From: an uncultured virus (IMG/VR IMGVR_UViG_3300034158_000001)
Lineage: Duplodnaviria; Heunggongvirae; Uroviricota; Caudoviricetes
IMG/VR virus record: IMGVR_UViG_3300034158_000001
Length of the DNA: 36,983 nt
Direction: 5' to 3' (one strand)
This document shows, piece after piece, positions 32,305 through 36,983 of this stretch. The notes under the pieces are model-generated. The model searched no databases. It saw only the letters and a list, made by a program, of their open reading frames with translations, and was not told where the DNA came from. The first letter of the stretch is position 1, and each line of letters opens with the position of its first letter. The position numbers and the translations under genes were made by a program.

Positions 32305-32429
32305 ACTGGTTCTCCTTTGATATATTTTTGCATGAGTACTTTGTAGTCAAGAACTTCTCCAGGGTGAGCCTCCTTATAAGAGGCTACCCACCAAGACCAA
32401 CCACCAACAGTGTCTTTAGCTGTCTTCAC
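32301..32429 (-). CDS. 42-aa peptide (below ORF-track cutoff)
   Basis: GTGA/ATGA overlaps at both ends; MKTAKDTVGGWSWWVASYKEAHPGEVLDYKVLMQKYIKGEPV. Confidence 0.6.
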   Translation of the reverse strand: MKTAKDTVGGWSWWVASYKEAHPGEVLDYKVLMQKYIKGEPV

Positions 32430-32605
32430 CAGTTACACCCGCAGTGTGATGGATGACCTTGAGGCATGCAGCAAACTTTCTGTTGTGGTGCTCCCCAGCC
32501 AGATTGGTAACTGGCCTGAACTGCCCACCCTAGATTGTAGAGTTCACGTTCTGCCTCTTCGATAATACGTTTGAGTTCTTGCCTCCGCATTTCAAGGGTC
32601 TTCAC
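32426..32605 (-). CDS. 59-aa peptide with coiled coil and Cys/His-rich tail (below cutoff)
   Basis: GGAGG RBS, GTGA overlaps; ends VCCMPQGHPSHCGCNW. Confidence 0.6.
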   Translation of the reverse strand: MKTLEMRRQELKRIIEEAERELYNLGWAVQASYQSGWGAPQQKVCCMPQGHPSHCGCNW

Positions 32606-32856
32606 CGAATGATCCTCCCGTTAAAGTTTGCATACCCTTCTTTATCGTCGTCATCGTAGATGGTCCATGTAGACCCACACTCGCAGCACGCCACACTGAT
32701 CCAGTAGCAGTCTGAAGTAGGGTCATAGTTACCAGTACTCCCGCCATACTTACCTGTCTTGTCAGTGTGAGGGCAGGTAGCTCGCAGTTCAGACAGCTCT
32801 TGGGAGAGTCGACTACGCATTGTGATGATGCGTGCTACACGTTCTTTGATAGTCAT
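32602..32856 (-). CDS. Zn-ribbon-like hypothetical protein
   Basis: CPH...GNYDP..D.YW....CCECG..W; ATGA overlap. Confidence 0.68.
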   Translation of the reverse strand: MTIKERVARIITMRSRLSQELSELRATCPHTDKTGKYGGSTGNYDPTSDCYWISVACCECGSTWTIYDDDDKEGYANFNGRIIR

Positions 32857-33347
32857 TTCTGCCAATTGTAGCACCCCTCACGGATAGCTGGCAAGTCTCC
32901 CCAGCAGCAACACTCCTTACCTTTGTCACAATACCCTGTAGAGCCAGTGAGGTGCAATAGGGCACCTTCGATGGTTCCCATTTTGTCTACTGCTTCCTTC
33001 GCCTCTTTAAGGCCGCACCCTGCACGTTCCCGTACAGTCTTGATCATCATCACCTTACTAGCTACGAGTGGTGTTGGTGTGAAGTCGGATGCCCACTGCA
33101 CTGCTGTTTCAGCTTCAGCAATAACTTTCTCATTTTCAAGGGCCAGGAGAAGGGATTCAAGAAGTTGGACGGCCTTCTCCTTGTTTGCATGCTGACTACG
33201 CTCACTGTCACAGGAGATACCAAGACCTGTCGGAATATGGTGTGCAATGATCCCACCTGTGGTGAGGCCAACAGTCATACCGCCAGCCCCATGTCCAGTC
33301 TGTGGCAGGTAGGATGTGATTCGGATATCAAACAGACTAATCGCCAT
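32853..33347 (-). CDS. RF-1 (peptide release factor)-like domain with GGM in place of GGQ, fused to a bL12-CTD/EF-Ts-N-like helical domain
   Basis: GAGGMTVG...HIPTGLGISCDSERSQHANKEKA..LL; SKVMMIKTVRERAGCGLKEAKEAVD; GAGG RBS. Confidence 0.8.
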   Translation of the reverse strand: MAISLFDIRITSYLPQTGHGAGGMTVGLTTGGIIAHHIPTGLGISCDSERSQHANKEKAVQLLESLLLALENEKVIAEAETAVQWASDFTPTPLVASKVMMIKTVRERAGCGLKEAKEAVDKMGTIEGALLHLTGSTGYCDKGKECCCWGDLPAIREGCYNWQK

Positions 33348-33810
33348 AGTAGAGTATTTCCTCAAAAGTGTTTTCAAAGTTTTCTAGAACAGCCTCGTTG
33401 AACCAACGGCTTGCTCCTGTGGGGCAGAGTGTACCACATTTAGCTAATGCGTCAATGAATTTCTTATATTCTCTCTGCTCTTTGAGGTTCTTTTCGTGCT
33501 CGGTTTGCACGCCATACCAACCATACCCGGAGGTTTCAATCTGATGACCCGCATCGTTCACCAGTACAAGCACTTGCTCGGTGAATCCAGGGTTCCGTTC
33601 AGAGCGGTAGACATAACTGCTCTTGAAGTACCAGTTTTGGTTTCCAGCAATACGTTGGAGTTCATAAACCAAGTGCTGAGATACCTCAAGTGTTTCCTCT
33701 AGCTTCTTGTAGAACGTGAAGTCGCTAGAACCGTATCCGTTCTCCATACGATAGCATTTGCGTTTGTCCACTGTTTCACCTCCAAGTAAAATGTAAAGAG
33801 CTGGGCTCAC
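33337..33810 (-). CDS. hypothetical protein
   Basis: GTGA overlap, 157 aa. Confidence 0.65.
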   Translation of the reverse strand: MSPALYILLGGETVDKRKCYRMENGYGSSDFTFYKKLEETLEVSQHLVYELQRIAGNQNWYFKSSYVYRSERNPGFTEQVLVLVNDAGHQIETSGYGWYGVQTEHEKNLKEQREYKKFIDALAKCGTLCPTGASRWFNEAVLENFENTFEEILYYGD

Positions 33811-34001
33811 TTGGCCCAGCTACGCCAGTCGATCCCGCAAGCATCTAAAGCTTCGTCCAGAGTGTAGTAATACGTGATTGGTGGCAGGCAGTAGTTGCGA
33901 GCGTACTCACGTATCTCCTCATTCATGGGAAGCTCTGACCACACTGTGGGTTCAATCGCCCCACAGATGTCACAGACTTTGGGAGTGTGTGGTTGTTCCA
34001 T
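33807..34001 (-). CDS. hypothetical protein (CxxC)
   Basis: Fills the gap in the - strand chain. Confidence 0.55.
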   Translation of the reverse strand: MEQPHTPKVCDICGAIEPTVWSELPMNEEIREYARNYCLPPITYYYTLDEALDACGIDWRSWAK

Positions 34002-34356
34002 TTTCAATTACCACCGCTTCATGAGAGTAGTAGCCATTATGCTCGTTGTAAGCCACAAATTGCAAGACACCTTTTGAAGTTTTGATGTTCACGAACATGC
34101 AATCACTCTCATAGACGCTACCCAGGGAAGTGGTTGCTAGTTTGCTGTCAACAACATCTGCACTCAGGTATTCCGCACCTACGAACTCTTCCAGGGAGTC
34201 CTCAGAGGTTAGGTAGCCCCAATTCTCACAGCAGCTCTGACCATTGCTGATACCCATCTTGATCTGCGTGTCGTCTTCAAGTGTGATAACGTAGCCGTCA
34301 TAACCGCTCCAAGAGCCACGGCCCCAAGTAGTTTCTTCGATAGACTTAATCTTCAT
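33970..34356 (-). CDS. conserved phage hypothetical protein (QSCCE...T.KG...NEHNGYYS family)
   Basis: AAGGAG RBS; QSCCE and HNGYYSH motifs. Confidence 0.75.
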   Translation of the reverse strand: MKIKSIEETTWGRGSWSGYDGYVITLEDDTQIKMGISNGQSCCENWGYLTSEDSLEEFVGAEYLSADVVDSKLATTSLGSVYESDCMFVNIKTSKGVLQFVAYNEHNGYYSHEAVVIENGTTTHSQSL

Positions 34357-34401
34357 TTTACTCTCCTTATATTTTGATTTTATGTACACACTTCCCACAG
34401 G

Positions 34402-35189: not shown

Positions 35190-35765
35190 TTATGCGAAGG
35201 CTTTCAATACTTCGTTAGGGTTGGCCTGGGCCGACTCACCAACTGGTTGGAAACCCCAACCATTGCCAGTACGTTGCAGAGTACCCACGTGCAGTGCAGT
35301 ACCATTTACGAACTGTTGCAGCTTGTATTGTGCCAACAGGTTGTCGTCTTGGTCATACAGGTCGAAACTACCACCAGAAATCATGCTGAAGTCTTGATTC
35401 CGTGCAATTGCATCATGCAAGAATACGAAGTGTTCGATATTGTCGATGTTTGCTGGAACTTTACCAATCTCAACCAGAATTTCTTCGTCATCCTGACCAG
35501 CCACATCTGCACCGTTACGGTTATCACGTGGCAGAACAACAGCACCGTTATAGCAGTCTTTGTTGTTGAAGAAGCAAACGTTCTTCATATCACCTTGGAT
35601 GCTGCCATTGCTGGTCAGGAACATGAAGATGTCAAGGTCAAACTCATGGCCTTTGCTTGCCATTGGGTGCAGGTTCCAGTTCAGAGCACCACGCAGACGG
35701 GTCAGCGAAGGTGCAACTTTGGTCAGGTCCAACATCAGGGTATCTTTGCTCAAGTTAAGCTCCAT
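35190..35765 (-). CDS. terD: TerD-family stress protein
   Basis: L.W...FDLD, FFNNK, DNRNG...GQDDEEILV, H.A..R.QDF, L.R...W.F..VG. Confidence 0.88.
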   Translation of the reverse strand: MELNLSKDTLMLDLTKVAPSLTRLRGALNWNLHPMASKGHEFDLDIFMFLTSNGSIQGDMKNVCFFNNKDCYNGAVVLPRDNRNGADVAGQDDEEILVEIGKVPANIDNIEHFVFLHDAIARNQDFSMISGGSFDLYDQDDNLLAQYKLQQFVNGTALHVGTLQRTGNGWGFQPVGESAQANPNEVLKAFA

Positions 35766-35825
35766 TATCAAGTTCCTCTTTAGTAGTAAGTTGAGGCGCC
35801 ATTTTGGCGCCTCTTTCAGTTTGTG

Positions 35826-36506
35826 TCAAGCTTCTTTGCTGAGTTTCTTAGCAGTAAATGCAGCCGCTACAACGATACCAGCACCAACAGCTTTAGCGAT
35901 CCAGTGGTTCACTTCGCCGATGTATTCAATGAAGTGTGCGTCAGATACGATCATTTCAGCACCAACAACACCCAACATACCAGCACCAATCCAGATAATC
36001 ACTGGGAATTTATCCATCAGACCAGACAAGTACTTAGCACCGTAGACAATGATTGGGATGCTCAACACGATACCAGCGATTGCGTACAGTGTAGAGTGAG
36101 CACCAGTGCTAGAAGCAGCGCCCGCCACAGCCATTACGTTGTCCAGCGAGAGCATGAAGTCAGCTACGATGATGGTCCAGACAGCGCCCCAAATTGTAGA
36201 TTTCTGTTCAACTTCTGGGTCTTCTTCATGGCCCGTCAAGAGCGAGTAACCAATCCAGACCAAGTAAATACCAGCGAAAATCTTCAGGAATGGGATACCC
36301 AGCAAGAAGGTTGCGAATACCAGCAGTACAGCTCGGAGTGCGATGGCGCCAGCAGTACCAAGCAGGATTGCTTTACCACGAACACTTACAGCCAGAGAAG
36401 CACATGCCAGAGCGATCACGATTGCGTTGTCTAGACCCAGAAGCAGGTCAATCATCGTGATCTTAAAGATCGCAGCCCAGTCGAGCATTGCGAAGAATTC
36501 CATCAT
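35826..36506 (-). CDS. terC: TerC-family integral membrane protein
   Basis: IDLLLGLDNAIVIAL, G..GAI.LR, TIIVADFMLSLDNVMAVAGA, GIVLSIP. Confidence 0.9.
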   Translation of the reverse strand: MMEFFAMLDWAAIFKITMIDLLLGLDNAIVIALACASLAVSVRGKAILLGTAGAIALRAVLLVFATFLLGIPFLKIFAGIYLVWIGYSLLTGHEEDPEVEQKSTIWGAVWTIIVADFMLSLDNVMAVAGAASSTGAHSTLYAIAGIVLSIPIIVYGAKYLSGLMDKFPVIIWIGAGMLGVVGAEMIVSDAHFIEYIGEVNHWIAKAVGAGIVVAAAFTAKKLSKEA

Positions 36507-36541
36507 TTTTGTTTCCCCTTTCAGTTTGTTTGTGTGGGGCC

Positions 36542-36570
36542 ATCTTATCTAATGGCCCCCATGTTGTCAA
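36542..36570 (-). promoter_or_regulatory. sigma70-type promoter for terC-terD
   Basis: TTGACA-N17-TAAGAT followed by CCCCACACAAACAAAC, same family as the early promoters. Confidence 0.72.
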
Positions 36571-36574
36571 CTAT

Positions 36575-36983
36575 TTATTTGGTTGCGAACGCTTTAAATT
36601 CTTCGTTCAGCAACAGCTCATAGAACTTGTTCTGATCGATAGCCTTCGGGTCCGTGATGTACAGCACTTCAACAGTGTCATACTTCGCAGCGATAGCGTC
36701 CAAGTAACGTTTATCGCAACCATTACCGATAGCAACGATCTGTACAAAGGTGTTCTCCAGCGAGTCTAGCTGAGCTTCAAACTCACGCTTATCGTTGTTG
36801 GCGCCATCGGTGATCAGTGCCAGATAGGTTGGGGTTACAGGCTTAGCTGCACCGAAACCGAACAGACCGAACAGACCGCGTTTTGTTGCCTGACCTTTCA
36901 GACCTGCGATAGCATCTGCGAAATTGGTCCCACCGCCTGCACGAATACCGTGCTTACGGATGTAGGTGTGTGCATCATCTACA
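36575..36983 (-). CDS. vWA domain protein of Ter-type clusters (5' part outside window; missed by ORF track)
   Basis: GGGTNFADAI, PTYLALITDG.NND, FVQIVAIG, YL..I, YELLLNEEF; stop at 36575-36577. Confidence 0.85.
   Translation of the reverse strand, partial: VDDAHTYIRKHGIRAGGGTNFADAIAGLKGQATKRGLFGLFGFGAAKPVTPTYLALITDGANNDKREFEAQLDSLENTFVQIVAIGNGCDKRYLDAIAAKYDTVEVLYITDPKAIDQNKFYELLLNEEFKAFATK

What the first reader, a model, noticed from the sequence alone, without database searches (positions are those of the whole stretch)
32853..33347. Release-factor mimic with GGQ changed to GGM, fused to a bL12/EF-Ts-like domain
Seen: GAGGMTVGLTTGGIIAHHIPTGLGISCDSERSQHANKEKAVQLL aligns by eye with class I release factor domain 3 ([44 protein letters not shown]), but the universally conserved Gln is Met (ATG at 33278-33276). 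No stop-codon-recognition domain or ArfB-type basic tail is present. The C-terminal half KVMMIKTVRERAGCGLKEAKEAVDKMGTIEGALLHL resembles the bL12 C-terminal domain (KVAVIKAVR..TGLGLKEAK.LVE) and the EF-Ts N-terminal helical domain, followed by a Cys-rich tail. Established: GGQ catalyses peptidyl-tRNA hydrolysis and its Gln is methylated by PrmC; the bL12 CTD recruits translational GTPases and also resembles ClpS-type folds. Inference: a catalytically altered mimic acting as a PrmC pseudo-substrate/inhibitor, a ribosome-binding takeover factor, or a decoy for translation-targeting defence toxins.
Basis: partly seen in the sequence, partly recalled or inferred. Interest (0 to 1): 0.8.

Follow-up and report, generated by a model that had tools for sequence, protein, structure and literature searches.

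The report
Phage release-factor head with GGM
A family of Pseudomonas phages carries a small early gene made of the peptide-releasing domain of a bacterial release factor, with its hallmark glutamine replaced by methionine, joined to the hairpin that ribosomal protein bL12 and EF-Ts use to grip EF-Tu; nobody has tested what it does.

Summary
Window 32853-33347 (-) encodes a 164-aa protein. Pfam finds an RF-1 domain (46.6 bits, cut-off 35) and a Ribosomal_L12 C-terminal motif (28.6 bits, cut-off 25.9), and nothing else. The catalytic loop reads GGM.

GGM is the family norm, not decay of this copy. In 107 aligned sequences the Gln position is Met in 87 and Gln in 9, and the second Gly is kept in 104. 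The Gln-bearing members are scattered over the tree, and a single clade for them is rejected (p-AU 0.0007).

The head matches release-factor domain 3 much better than ArfB (E 2e-18 against 0.0098). The tail half is a UBA-like three-helix module. Its first two helices match bL12 helices 4-5. A Cys4 knuckle follows in most members.

The gene lies among small early-type genes of an Otagovirus-like phage. GenBank relatives call it "peptide chain release factor 1", which its scores do not support.

Function is untested. My best reading (0.3) is a codon-independent ribosomal A-site factor, docked through the hairpin, in which Met stands in for methyl-Gln. I found no paper describing it. It is a new variant of a known kind, interest about 0.66.

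The parts
32853..33347 (-). Whole gene: 164 codons plus the TGA stop. PHROG 35727 family member.
   Evidence: phrog_35727 matches full length, E 1.7e-77. 120 relatives are listed.
33123..33347 (-). Head, residues 1-75: release-factor domain 3 (RF-1 / peptidyl-tRNA hydrolase fold). Three strands and one long helix.
   Evidence: Pfam RF-1 46.6 bits. Family profile against solved RF1: E 2e-18. Foldseek best hits are RF1/RF2/mtRF1a, 28-42% identity over 77-94 columns. VIA: Z 9.8 (rmsd 3.1, 85 aligned) and Z 9.6 (rmsd 1.8, 69 aligned).
33267..33296 (-). Catalytic-loop equivalent, residues 18-27 (GHGAGGMTVG). Met24 is the codon at 33276-33278, in the place of the GGQ glutamine.
   Evidence: alignment. 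Family counts, of 107 rows: G22 95, G23 104, position 24 Met 87 / Gln 9, V26 92, G27 96.
33171..33206 (-). Residues 48-59, SERSQHANKEKA. This is the most conserved stretch of the family and is shared with canonical release factors.
   Evidence: E49, R50, S51, N55 and A59 are invariant in 107 rows. The stretch aligns to [11 protein letters not shown] of RF1.
33063..33122 (-). Residues 76-95: end of the long helix and a linker of variable length and sequence.
   Evidence: Alignment A1 shows many gaps and no consensus here. The model has helix 52-88 followed by a low-confidence stretch.
32940..33062 (-). Residues 96-136: UBA-like three-helix module. Helices 1-2 are the bL12 helix 4-5 / EF-Ts N-terminal type hairpin.
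   Evidence: Pfam Ribosomal_L12 28.6 bits. Aligns to E. coli bL12 residues 63-89. V99, I102, K103, V105, R106, G110, G112, L113, K114, E115, K117, V120 and D121 are each kept in at least 90% of 107 rows. Models show helices 93-109, 113-123 and 126-134. EF-Ts N-terminal domain: Z 5.4-5.7, rmsd 1.0 over 41 residues.
32856..32939 (-). Residues 137-164: Cys-rich tail, probably a Cys4 zinc knuckle. Consensus GYCxxGxxCVCGGDLPAIREGCYNW.
   Evidence: C140, C146, C148 and C159 are invariant in 82 tail-bearing rows. The tail was detected by a motif in 78 of 107 rows. It is absent in phiPsa381. Metal binding is inferred, not shown.
33337..33810 (-). Upstream gene (phrog_37145, unknown function). Its end overlaps the start of the finding's gene by 11 bases.
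   Evidence: A gene also abuts the upstream end in phiPsa381, at the same relative position; homology of that gene was not tested.
32602..32856 (-). Downstream gene (phrog_4837, Cys-rich, unknown function). Its ATG overlaps the finding's stop codon (ATGA).
   Evidence: No solved relative found.

Best explanation
This is an early-region gene of an Otagovirus-like Pseudomonas phage. It encodes a two-module factor directed at the translation machinery.

Shown: module 1 is domain 3 of a class-I release factor, the part that reaches into the peptidyl-transferase centre. It has no stop-codon-reading domains. Module 2 is a three-helix domain carrying the alpha-hairpin that bL12 (helices 4-5) and EF-Ts (N-terminal domain) use to contact EF-Tu and other translational GTPases. 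A Cys4 knuckle follows.

Inferred mechanism: the hairpin module docks the protein to EF-Tu, to another translational GTPase, or to the factor-binding site of the ribosome. The head then enters the large-subunit A site without regard to the codon, and its GG-Met loop reaches the peptidyl-transferase centre.

Inferred role of Met: methionine is a selected surrogate for the N5-methyl-glutamine of host release factors. It is long, unbranched and hydrophobic at its tip. It would keep the packing and positioning role of that side chain without needing the host methyltransferase PrmC. On this reading the protein still promotes, perhaps more slowly or with altered specificity, release of peptidyl-tRNA from ribosomes with an empty A site.

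Inferred benefit: such ribosomes would arise when host nucleases or tRNA- and mRNA-cutting defences, or the phage's own shut-off, stall translation. Clearing them would free ribosomes for phage messages.
For: Both modules come from the translation apparatus and both pass Pfam's curated cut-offs.

Head. The fold and sequence match RF1/RF2 domain 3: profile E 2e-18, with 40-42% identity to E. coli RF1 in the Foldseek rows; VIA Z 9.6-9.8.

The loop is under constraint, not decaying. Of 107 rows: G23 104, G22 95, V26 92, G27 96. The nearby linker, by contrast, is free to vary.

Position 24 is almost only Met (87) or Gln (9), with one Leu and one Ile among GG-bearing rows. Gln to Met needs two base changes. 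The single-step neighbours of the Gln codon (Lys, Glu, His, Pro, Arg), which would also remove the Gln, are not seen at position 24 in any of the 107 rows. That pattern fits a chosen side chain better than a simple loss.

The Gln and Met forms interchange repeatedly. The 9 GGQ rows need 8 changes on the tree, and at least 6 are forced by well-supported branches. There are well-supported sister pairs of one Met and one Gln member. One clade for the GGQ rows is rejected: lnL difference 274, p-AU 0.0007. Repeated interchange suggests the two residues are close to equivalent in function.

Purifying selection. Window against VCM: dN 0.278, dS 1.657. Against phiPsa381: pN 0.234, pS 0.826.

Hairpin. 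It aligns to E. coli bL12 residues 63-89 with 17 identities in 27 positions, counted by eye from the alignment. Thirteen hairpin positions are kept in at least 90% of rows. Alva et al. [quoted passage not shown]

Role of the Gln. Passages in PMC5799190 say the Gln side chain has a packing role. PMC13672221 summarises Aleksandrova et al. 2025: the methylated Gln positions the motif and raises affinity, and the tRNA A76 2'-OH acts as the nucleophile.

Genome position. The gene lies in a run of small overlapping genes within about 2.5 kb of the terminal repeat in phiPsa381. This is an early or host-take-over type region; the timing itself is inferred.
Against: No assay exists, and every functional step is inferred.

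Residues that active hydrolases keep are changed even in the GGQ-bearing members. The Asn of GGQ-x-V-N is Gly in 96 of 107 rows. The Arg of the S-A-[IV]-R strand is Val or Ala.

The head has half the basic residues of the same stretch of four canonical release factors (median 4 against 9; net charge 0 against +3). That would weaken rRNA binding.

Most members carry a 3-residue insertion before the GG.

Two subclades (9 of 107 rows, such as P0064, P0068, P0109, P0065 and P0092) have rewritten the loop and lost GG-Met altogether, yet keep the rest of the protein. So whatever the protein does can survive without a loop aimed at the peptidyl-transferase centre.

The structural match of the hairpin module is weak in statistical terms: Z 5.4-5.7, and no Foldseek hit at E<=0.001.

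The same hairpin occurs in hundreds of non-ribosomal proteins of unknown role, so a partner other than EF-Tu is possible.
Confidence: 0.3

Rival explanations
1. Non-catalytic A-site occupant. The head and hairpin bind the ribosome and/or EF-Tu but do not release the peptide. The protein would plug or park ribosomes (host shut-off, protection or hibernation), working like Dom34-Hbs1 or the bacterial Balon-EF-Tu pair. Alternatively it would soak up translational GTPases by imitating a bL12 C-terminal domain.
For: The universal Gln is absent in 98 of 107 rows. The conserved Asn and Arg of active hydrolases are gone, and basic residues are halved. Nine of 107 rows have lost the GG loop but keep the ERSQ..NK helix, the hairpin and the tail, so the conserved core looks like a binding surface. 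There is a precedent: Balon lacks GGQ, sits in the A site independently of mRNA, acts together with EF-Tu and keeps the catalytic centre inert (PMC10901736, abstract and section 10). Burroughs and Aravind (PMC6514570, passages seen) read Gln-less release-factor-like families as inactive binders.
Against: A pure binder would not need GG (104 of 107) or a choice restricted to Met or Gln. Repeated Met/Gln interchange would then toggle between an inert and a potentially peptide-releasing protein. The phage also needs working ribosomes.
Confidence: 0.27
2. PrmC pseudo-substrate. The GGM loop enters the active site of the host release-factor glutamine methyltransferase PrmC as a side chain that cannot be methylated. 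This blocks methylation of RF1/RF2 and weakens host termination.
For: The head is 40-42% identical to E. coli RF1 domain 3, the part that a solved RF1-PrmC complex involves (2b3t appears among the matches). Gln-to-Met is a classic change from substrate to dead-end analogue. Conservation of GG plus a Gln-sized side chain fits an enzyme pocket as well as it fits the ribosome.
Against: It gives no role to the strongly conserved bL12-type hairpin or to the Cys knuckle. GGQ-bearing members would be substrates, not inhibitors, yet they alternate with GGM members. Loop-less members persist. The loss of basic residues does not suggest tighter binding to an enzyme that recognises release factors. The benefit to a lytic phage is unclear.
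Confidence: 0.12
3. Decoy or antidote against a host defence. The protein presents a release-factor-like or bL12-like surface to a defence sensor or toxin that acts on the translation apparatus, or it shields EF-Tu.
For: The gene lies in an early region among small genes of unknown function. Repeated Met/Gln switching and a variable linker and tail resemble arms-race genes. bL12-type hairpin repeats are fused to a TIR domain in one bacterial protein (P0150; weak PADLOC SAVED_TIR match), which hints that this hairpin is used in conflict systems.
Against: I know of no defence system that targets the GGQ domain or the bL12 C-terminal domain (from recall, not searched). The protein and its two neighbours have no PADLOC match. 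dN/dS of about 0.17 is ordinary purifying selection.
Confidence: 0.12
4. The Met codon matters as an internal start. The Gln-to-ATG change creates a second initiation site, so a short form lacking strand 1 and the GG loop is made alongside or instead of the full protein.
For: Database gene calls start at this Met in 5 of the 120 relatives listed (P0002, P0028, P0116, P0117, P0119). The Gly-rich codons upstream pair moderately with the anti-Shine-Dalgarno sequence in two of three genomes tested: -5.5 and -5.8 kcal/mol, against -6.2 and -6.6 at the true starts.
Against: In VCM the upstream pairing is weak (-2.5). The pairing follows from the Gly codons themselves. Residues 1-23 are conserved as protein. 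GGQ and loop-less members have no such ATG. The short form would lack a strand of the sheet.
Confidence: 0.04
5. A decaying or neutral remnant of a captured release-factor gene, with no function.
For: It lacks the Gln and the codon-reading domains. Some contigs hold split or truncated forms (P0276-P0279).
Against: There are 120 relatives at 41-88% identity with intact frames. Blocks are invariant in both modules. dN/dS is well below 1. The fusion is kept across roughly 95-100 kb phage contigs.
Confidence: 0.02

Closest known systems
Domain 3 (GGQ domain) of bacterial class-I release factors RF1/RF2 (Pfam RF-1, PF00472)
   Same: Same fold and clear sequence homology over residues 1-80, including the GxGG loop, the strands and the ERSQxxNK helix.
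   Different: No domains 1, 2 or 4, so no stop-codon reading. Gln is replaced by Met. The Asn and Arg that follow GGQ are lost. Half the basic residues. Most members have a 3-residue loop insertion. Fused to a bL12-type hairpin.
ArfB (YaeJ) / ICT1 / mtRF-R: stand-alone GGQ-domain rescue factors
   Same: A GGQ-type domain without codon-reading domains, joined by a linker to a second element that decides where it acts. This is the best model for how the protein might work.
   Different: Sequence is much closer to RF1/RF2 than to ArfB (E 2e-18 against 0.0098). No basic C-terminal helix for the mRNA channel, which ArfB needs for activity (PMC3950681, abstract and passages). No Gln. The predicted head has one helix and three strands and shows no helix where ArfB/ICT1 carry their inserted one (comparison by eye).
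[quoted passage not shown] 2001, as cited in PMC4739770)
   Same: Residues 97-123 align to E. coli bL12 63-89. The three-helix topology superposes on the EF-Ts N-terminal domain taken from EF-Tu/EF-Ts complexes (rmsd 1.0 over 41 residues).
   Different: No bL12 N-terminal stalk-binding domain and only profile positions 10-38 of 67 of the C-terminal domain. No EF-Ts core domain. Binding to EF-Tu is not shown.
Balon-EF-Tu and Dom34(Pelota)-Hbs1: release-factor-like A-site factors without the catalytic Gln
   Same: Possible functional analogy: a release-factor-like protein lacking the Gln that acts in the A site without a stop codon, coupled to an EF-Tu-type GTPase (PMC10901736).
   Different: Those proteins have the unrelated archaeo-eukaryotic aeRF1 fold and keep decoding-centre domains. 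Here the head has the bacterial RF-1 fold, keeps GG, and the link to EF-Tu is only inferred.
PHROG 35727 and GenBank entries labelled 'peptide chain release factor 1' in Otagovirus genomes (VCM, phiPsa381, COT4, PHB09 and others)
   Same: It is a member of this family: E 1.7e-77 over the full length, 54-74% identity to the named phages.
   Different: The family has no described function. The release-factor label fails NCBI's own thresholds: prfA 48.4 bits against 423, prfB 49.2 against 370. The PHB09 paper only lists the gene in a table as 'auxiliary metabolism' (PMC8622976, passage seen).

Membership tests
Class-I release factor RF1/RF2 (PrfA/PrfB) | RF-1 (GGQ) domain present | tested here: met
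   PF00472: 46.6 bits against a cut-off of 35. Fold match at Z 9.6-9.8.
Class-I release factor RF1/RF2 (PrfA/PrfB) | Codon-reading PCRF domain (domains 2/4 with the PxT or SPF tripeptide) and domain 1 | tested here: not met
   Pfam at E<=10 finds no PCRF. The protein is 164 aa. NCBIfam prfA scores 48.4 bits against 423 and prfB 49.2 against 370. No longer fused forms were found, only 4 ordinary 362-aa release factors.
Class-I release factor RF1/RF2 (PrfA/PrfB) | Invariant Gly-Gly-Gln | tested here: not met
   The loop reads GGM. Met24 aligns with the Gln. Met in 87 of 107 family rows.
ArfB/ICT1-type codon-independent release factor | Basic C-terminal tail that enters the mRNA channel | tested here: not met
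   The C-terminal half is a UBA-like module plus a Cys knuckle. Whole-protein net charge is -3.
ArfB/ICT1-type codon-independent release factor | GGQ domain of the ArfB/ICT1 subtype with GGQ | tested here: not met
   Family profile against ArfB: E 0.0098, compared with 2e-18 for RF1. No Gln. The model shows no inserted helix.
Ribosomal protein bL12 | N-terminal dimerisation and bL10-binding domain | tested here: not met
   Pfam at E<=10 returns no family other than RF-1 and Ribosomal_L12. NCBIfam L12 scores 24.3 bits against a cut-off of 84.4.
Ribosomal protein bL12 | C-terminal domain helices 4-5 (factor-binding hairpin) | tested here: met
   PF00542: 28.6 bits against 25.9, profile positions 10-38. 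Alignment to E. coli bL12 63-89.
Ribosomal protein bL12 | Complete alpha/beta C-terminal domain (67 profile positions) | tested here: not met
   Only positions 10-38 are matched. Both models give a three-helix bundle.
EF-Ts | N-terminal UBA-like domain | tested here: inconclusive
   Structure: Z 5.4-5.7, rmsd 1.0 over 41 residues. Foldseek E 1.2-2.8 with 32-34% identity. Sequence E only 1.9.
EF-Ts | EF_TS core (dimerisation/exchange) domain | tested here: not met
   No Pfam hit. The protein ends 28 residues after the three-helix module.
PHROG 35727 (phage family, unknown function) | Full-length profile match | tested here: met
   E 1.7e-77, residues 6-164 against profile positions 5-162 of 162.
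Peptidyl-tRNA hydrolase activity (works like a release factor) | Ribosome-dependent hydrolysis of peptidyl-tRNA | not testable with these tools
   Needs a biochemical assay.
EF-Tu / translational GTPase binder (works like the bL12 C-terminal domain) | Physical binding to EF-Tu helix D or to another GTPase | not testable with these tools
   Needs pull-down, NMR or cryo-EM. See Tried and rejected for the one computational attempt.

The most novel reading that the evidence does not exclude
Phages have built, from host parts, a GTPase-coupled A-site factor: a bacterial-type release-factor head delivered or anchored through an EF-Tu-binding hairpin. It would be a viral counterpart of Dom34-Hbs1 or Balon-EF-Tu. 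Methionine would be a natural, methylation-independent replacement for the supposedly universal catalytic glutamine. The repeated Met/Gln switching would make this family a natural experiment on what the GGQ glutamine is for.
Probability: 0.15. Interest if true: 0.88.

Novelty: new variant of a known kind. Interest (0 to 1): 0.66.

Why it matters
The glutamine of GGQ is treated as universal in every protein that releases peptides on the ribosome, and its exact role is still debated. Here a whole family keeps the two glycines but uses methionine, and its members switch between Met and Gln several times.

If the Met form is active, nature has already run the mutagenesis that shows the side chain is for packing and not for chemistry, and it would not need the host methyltransferase. 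If it is inactive, phages carry a new kind of A-site blocker.

Either way, the fusion to the hairpin that bL12 and EF-Ts use for EF-Tu points to a way of reaching the A site that is not known for bacterial-type release-factor domains.

There is also a practical point. The gene is mislabelled 'peptide chain release factor 1' in many phage genomes that are being developed for biocontrol of plant-pathogenic Pseudomonas.

Tried and rejected
Complex prediction. I sent P. syringae EF-Tu (Swiss-Prot EFTU_PSESM) with residues 88-138 of the family alignment. The result was 'no answer' (score 0.03, mark 0.32). This is no evidence either way.

Expression. No RNA holder was listed among 15 sequencing runs. 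I did not lay reads.

Own genome. The window's assembly is not held. The nearest virus record, G001, holds an almost identical gene with two in-frame deletions. It is too close to be informative about selection.

Neighbours as clues. Of the 15 neighbouring ORFs scanned, Pfam hit only the TerD, TerC, vWA and DUF7448 ORFs (4 of 15). PHROGs gave only unknown-function families, plus a 'membrane protein' family for the TerC ORF. The genes directly up- and downstream have no significant solved-structure relatives. PADLOC gave nothing for the protein or these two neighbours. There are no tRNA genes in the window.

Other hits in the phage collection. I opened 2 of the 26 non-Pseudomonas/non-Pectobacterium records (Listeria, Acinetobacter, Salmonella, Escherichia, 'Bacteriophage sp.'). 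Both were ordinary full-length RF1/RF2 genes with GGQ in unverified short records, not relatives of the fusion.

Longer or shorter forms. The 'longer' search found only 4 canonical release factors. The 'shorter' search found 5 pieces: head-only P0276-P0278, and hairpin-plus-tail-only P0127 and P0279. These may be splits, breaks or miscalls.

Fold of the C-terminal module alone. Foldseek gave no hit at E<=0.001, and the best VIA Z was 5.7. So 'UBA-like / EF-Ts N-terminal-like' rests on modest structural scores plus the sequence match to bL12.

Literature. No paper in the searchable library holds GGQ, GGM and 'release factor' together. Searches for phage GGQ or ArfB-like proteins and for Otagovirus release factors found only genome tables. 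Shaw & Green 2007 and Aleksandrova et al. 2025 are not held. What I say about single substitutions of the Gln beyond the passages is from recall. Supplements were not consulted.

Earlier notes of this scan hold nothing for this genome or sequence.
Full report
**What is there**

The minus-strand ORF 32853..33347 encodes 164 residues. Its start lies 11 bases inside the end of the upstream gene. Its stop overlaps the ATG of the downstream gene (ATGA), so it sits in a tightly packed operon.

Pfam, even at E<=10, returns two families only:
- RF-1 (PF00472): 46.6 bits, cut-off 35, residues 18-80.
- Ribosomal_L12 C-terminal domain (PF00542): 28.6 bits, cut-off 25.9, residues 96-124, matching profile positions 10-38 of 67.

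There is no PCRF codon-reading domain. The protein's net charge is -3, so it has no ArfB-like basic tail.

**Where it comes from**

The window is from an Otagovirus-like Pseudomonas phage.
- A protein-level search of the phage collection finds the gene in 41 Pseudomonas-phage records and one Pectobacterium-phage record, at 54-74% identity among the 40 rows shown. These include COT4, M5.1, REC, PHB09, VCM and the phiPsa374 group.
- Flanking DNA matches the same phages at 81-86% identity.
- In phiPsa381 the gene lies about 1.8-2.2 kb from the left end, after the terminal repeat, in a run of small genes of unknown function.
- In the window the neighbours are small ORFs of unknown function, a DUF7448 protein, and TerD, TerC and vWA genes.
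- GenBank calls the gene 'peptide chain release factor 1'. PHROGs files it as family 35727, function unknown.
- By NCBI's own models it is far below the release-factor thresholds: prfA 48.4 bits against 423, prfB 49.2 against 370.

**GGM is the family norm**

A search of the 5.8-billion-protein collection gave 121 relatives at E<=0.001, of which 120 are listed. I aligned the window protein with 106 of them. The 14 I left out were:
- the window's own short database call (P0002);
- four gene calls that begin at the Met of GGM (P0028, P0116, P0117, P0119);
- four that looked like near-copies of rows already in the alignment (P0043, P0047, P0055, P0076);
- five short rows (P0103, P0111, P0112, P0114, P0118).

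In one search two of the dropped rows read GGQ (P0111, P0118). The rest read GGM, begin at that Met, or (P0076) have a rewritten loop.

In the 107 rows the Gln position is Met 87, Gln 9, Asn 6, and Leu, Ile, Tyr, Ser and a gap once each. The flanking loop is conserved: G22 95, G23 104, V26 92, G27 96 of 107. The linker (residues 76-95), by contrast, has no consensus.

Nine rows in two subclades have rewritten the loop completely (for example ..HGNSTWLP..), yet keep the rest of the protein.

Selection is purifying. Window against VCM gives dN 0.278 and dS 1.657. Against phiPsa381, pN is 0.234 and pS is 0.826, so synonymous sites are saturated.

**Met and Gln alternate**

On a maximum-likelihood tree of the 107 rows plus four canonical release factors as outgroup, the 9 GGQ rows need 8 changes. 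Well-supported branches alone force at least 6. Sister pairs of one Met and one Gln member are supported at 97-98%. Holding the GGQ rows together costs 274 log-likelihood units, p-AU 0.0007.

Caveats: the group was named after the tree was seen, the tree was built by the quick search, and recombination between phages could move alleles.

With GG present, the residue pairs at positions 24-25 are MT 51, MQ 14, MS 9, MM 5, QH 4, QQ 4, MA 2, MR 2, LN 1, QM 1 and IS 1. Gln to Met takes two base changes. The one-step neighbours of the Gln codon (Lys, Glu, His, Pro, Arg) do not appear at position 24 in any of the 107 rows, and Leu appears once. I read this as selection for a particular long, unbranched side chain, not simple loss of the Gln.

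**The head**

A profile of the family against all solved chains gives the following:

| Solved protein | E-value |
|---|---|
| RF1 | 2e-18 |
| RF2 | about 1e-17 to 1e-13 |
| PrfH | 1e-11 |
| C12orf65 | 6e-7 |
| ArfB | 0.0098 |

So the head derives from RF1/RF2 domain 3, not from ArfB.

The AlphaFold model (mean pLDDT 77.8) has strands 8-13, 32-37 and 42-46, a low-confidence loop at 14-31, and a long helix 52-88. Foldseek's 15 matches at E<=0.001 are all release factors. VIA gives Z 9.8 (rmsd 3.1, 85 aligned) and Z 9.6 (rmsd 1.8, 69 aligned).

Differences from active hydrolases go beyond the Gln:
- The Asn of GGQ-x-V-N is Gly in 96 of 107 rows.
- The Arg of S-A-[IV]-R is Val or Ala.
- Most members have three extra residues before GG; the VCM-type members do not.
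- The head has a median of 4 Lys+Arg, against 9 in the same stretch of four canonical factors.

**The tail half**

Residues 97-123 align to E. coli bL12 63-89 (helices 4-5). I count 17 identities in 27 positions by eye from the printed alignment. Thirteen of these positions are kept in at least 90% of rows.

Both models make a three-helix bundle. The best structural neighbours are UBA domains and the EF-Ts N-terminal domain from EF-Tu/EF-Ts complexes: Z 5.4-5.7, rmsd 1.0 over 41 residues; Foldseek E 1.2-2.8 at 32-34% identity; 1ctf bL12 at 58% identity over 26 columns. The ESM Atlas lists UBA_4, EF-Ts_N and GKRP-like_C models. These structural scores are modest, so the assignment rests mainly on the sequence match.

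Alva et al. [quoted passage not shown] 2001. Kothe et al. 2004, on EF-Tu helix D with L7/12 helices 4 and 5, is listed in PMC12179292 (reference list seen). That particular residues such as V66, I69, K70, L80 and E82 of bL12 bind factors is my recollection, not a call result.

After the bundle comes GYCxxGxxCVCGGDLPAIREGCYNW, with four invariant Cys in the 82 tail-bearing rows I aligned. It is probably a zinc knuckle, which is an inference. A motif search finds the tail in 78 of 107 rows. It is absent in the phiPsa381 group.

**The hairpin is a mobile module**

An exhaustive search with residues 90-164 found 464 proteins at E<=0.001. Apart from a few clusters of this family, the listed hits carry the hairpin 2 to 18 times in tandem.

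Of the 29 I scanned, 28 hit Ribosomal_L12 at E<=0.001. Only one (P0153, a family member) has RF-1. Partners include TIR, LRV/HEAT, NHL propeller, PASTA, zinc ribbon and Coa1 domains, and DUF6793. Predicted membrane anchors in some of these (P0245, P0273) are judged by eye from the sequences.

One phage-type protein, P0149, joins the same hairpin-plus-Cys-tail module to a different Cys-rich head. This suggests the tail half is an adaptor and the head an exchangeable effector.

**How it most likely works**

Both modules come from the translation machinery, so the ribosome is the most economical site of action.

Best reading (0.3):
- The hairpin docks the protein to EF-Tu, to another GTPase, or to the factor-binding site.
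- The head enters the 50S A site independently of the codon.
- The GG-Met loop reaches the peptidyl-transferase centre.
- Met takes over the packing and positioning role of the N5-methyl-Gln of host factors, without needing PrmC.
- Some peptidyl-tRNA release is retained on ribosomes with an empty A site.

Passages I saw say the Gln side chain has a 'packing role' (PMC5799190). They also say that in the 2025 model the methylated Gln positions the motif while the tRNA's own 2'-OH attacks (PMC13672221, summarising Aleksandrova et al.). The Met/Gln alternation fits near-equivalence of the two residues.

Against this reading: other conserved hydrolase residues and basic charge are lost, and members without the loop survive.

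Rivals:
- Non-catalytic plug or parking factor (0.27). This is nearly as likely. It has a precedent in Balon, which lacks GGQ, sits in the A site with EF-Tu independently of mRNA, and keeps the catalytic centre inert (PMC10901736, abstract and section 10).
- PrmC pseudo-substrate (0.12). It explains the Met but not the hairpin.
- Defence decoy (0.12).
- Internal start at the Met codon (0.04). Upstream pairing with the anti-Shine-Dalgarno sequence is -5.5, -5.8 and -2.5 kcal/mol, against -6.2, -6.6 and -5.7 at the true starts.
- Dead remnant (0.02).

**Comparison with what is known, and novelty**

The protein is a member of PHROG 35727. It is not RF1 or RF2 (no codon-reading domains, no Gln), not ArfB (no basic tail, weak similarity), not bL12 (no N-terminal domain, only the hairpin) and not EF-Ts (no core domain).

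I found no paper that holds GGQ, GGM and 'release factor' together. Searches on phage GGQ proteins and on Otagovirus release factors found only table entries. Burroughs and Aravind's survey of release-factor domains has no occurrence of 'phage' or 'L12' (PMC6514570, term search).

Earlier notes of this scan mention other untested phage GGQ mini-proteins and a 'dead' release-factor fragment. None has this fusion or GGM.

I rate it a new variant of a known kind, with interest 0.66. Function remains unproven. The one complex-prediction job (EF-Tu) gave no verdict, and no RNA data were found (see Tried and rejected).

Noticed in passing
window 32426-32605 (-): A 59-aa ORF two genes downstream ends in ..CCMPQGHPSHCGCNW. 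The same kind of tail (..CTMPQGHPTHCGCEW) replaces the usual Cys knuckle in family member P0086. So Cys-rich C-terminal tags seem to be shared or swapped among small early proteins of these phages.
   Followed up: partly
proteins P0128-P0275; P0150, P0131, P0247, P0180, P0245, P0273: The bL12 helix 4-5 hairpin occurs as 2-18 tandem repeats in hundreds of non-ribosomal bacterial proteins. It is fused to TIR, LRV/HEAT, NHL-propeller, PASTA or zinc-ribbon domains; membrane anchors in P0245 and P0273 are judged by eye. Pfam labels part of it DUF6793. This is a widespread adaptor module of unknown role. The TIR fusion hints at a link to defence.
   Followed up: partly
protein P0149 (169 aa): A phage-type protein carries the same hairpin-plus-Cys-knuckle module as the finding, behind a different Cys-rich N-terminal head with no family match. 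The tail half therefore behaves as an exchangeable adaptor.
   Followed up: partly
window 33276-33278; protein P0002: The public database's gene call for this very sequence starts at the Met of GGM (141 aa) and loses strand 1 and the GG loop. Four relatives are called the same way (P0028, P0116, P0117, P0119).
   Followed up: yes
window 35190-36982 (-): A phage-borne TerD (35190-35771), TerC (35826-36506) and vWA/TerF-like (36575-36982, runs off the window) cluster lies just upstream in the same transcription direction. Relatives annotate these as tellurium-resistance or general stress proteins.
   Followed up: no
locus L003 (virus record G001), gene for the same protein: The nearest held virus record has an almost identical gene with two in-frame deletions. 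Two residues are missing in the linker and four (LPAI-type) in the Cys tail, which keeps its cysteines.
   Followed up: partly
proteins P0276-P0279, P0127: A few contigs carry the head alone (72-86 aa) or the hairpin plus tail alone (64 aa, starting at the Met inside KVxMIK). These may be natural splits, frameshifts or gene-calling artefacts.
   Followed up: no
window 33970-34398 (-): A 142-aa ORF matches Pfam DUF7448 (E 1.1e-17), a domain of unknown function, three genes upstream of the finding.
   Followed up: no
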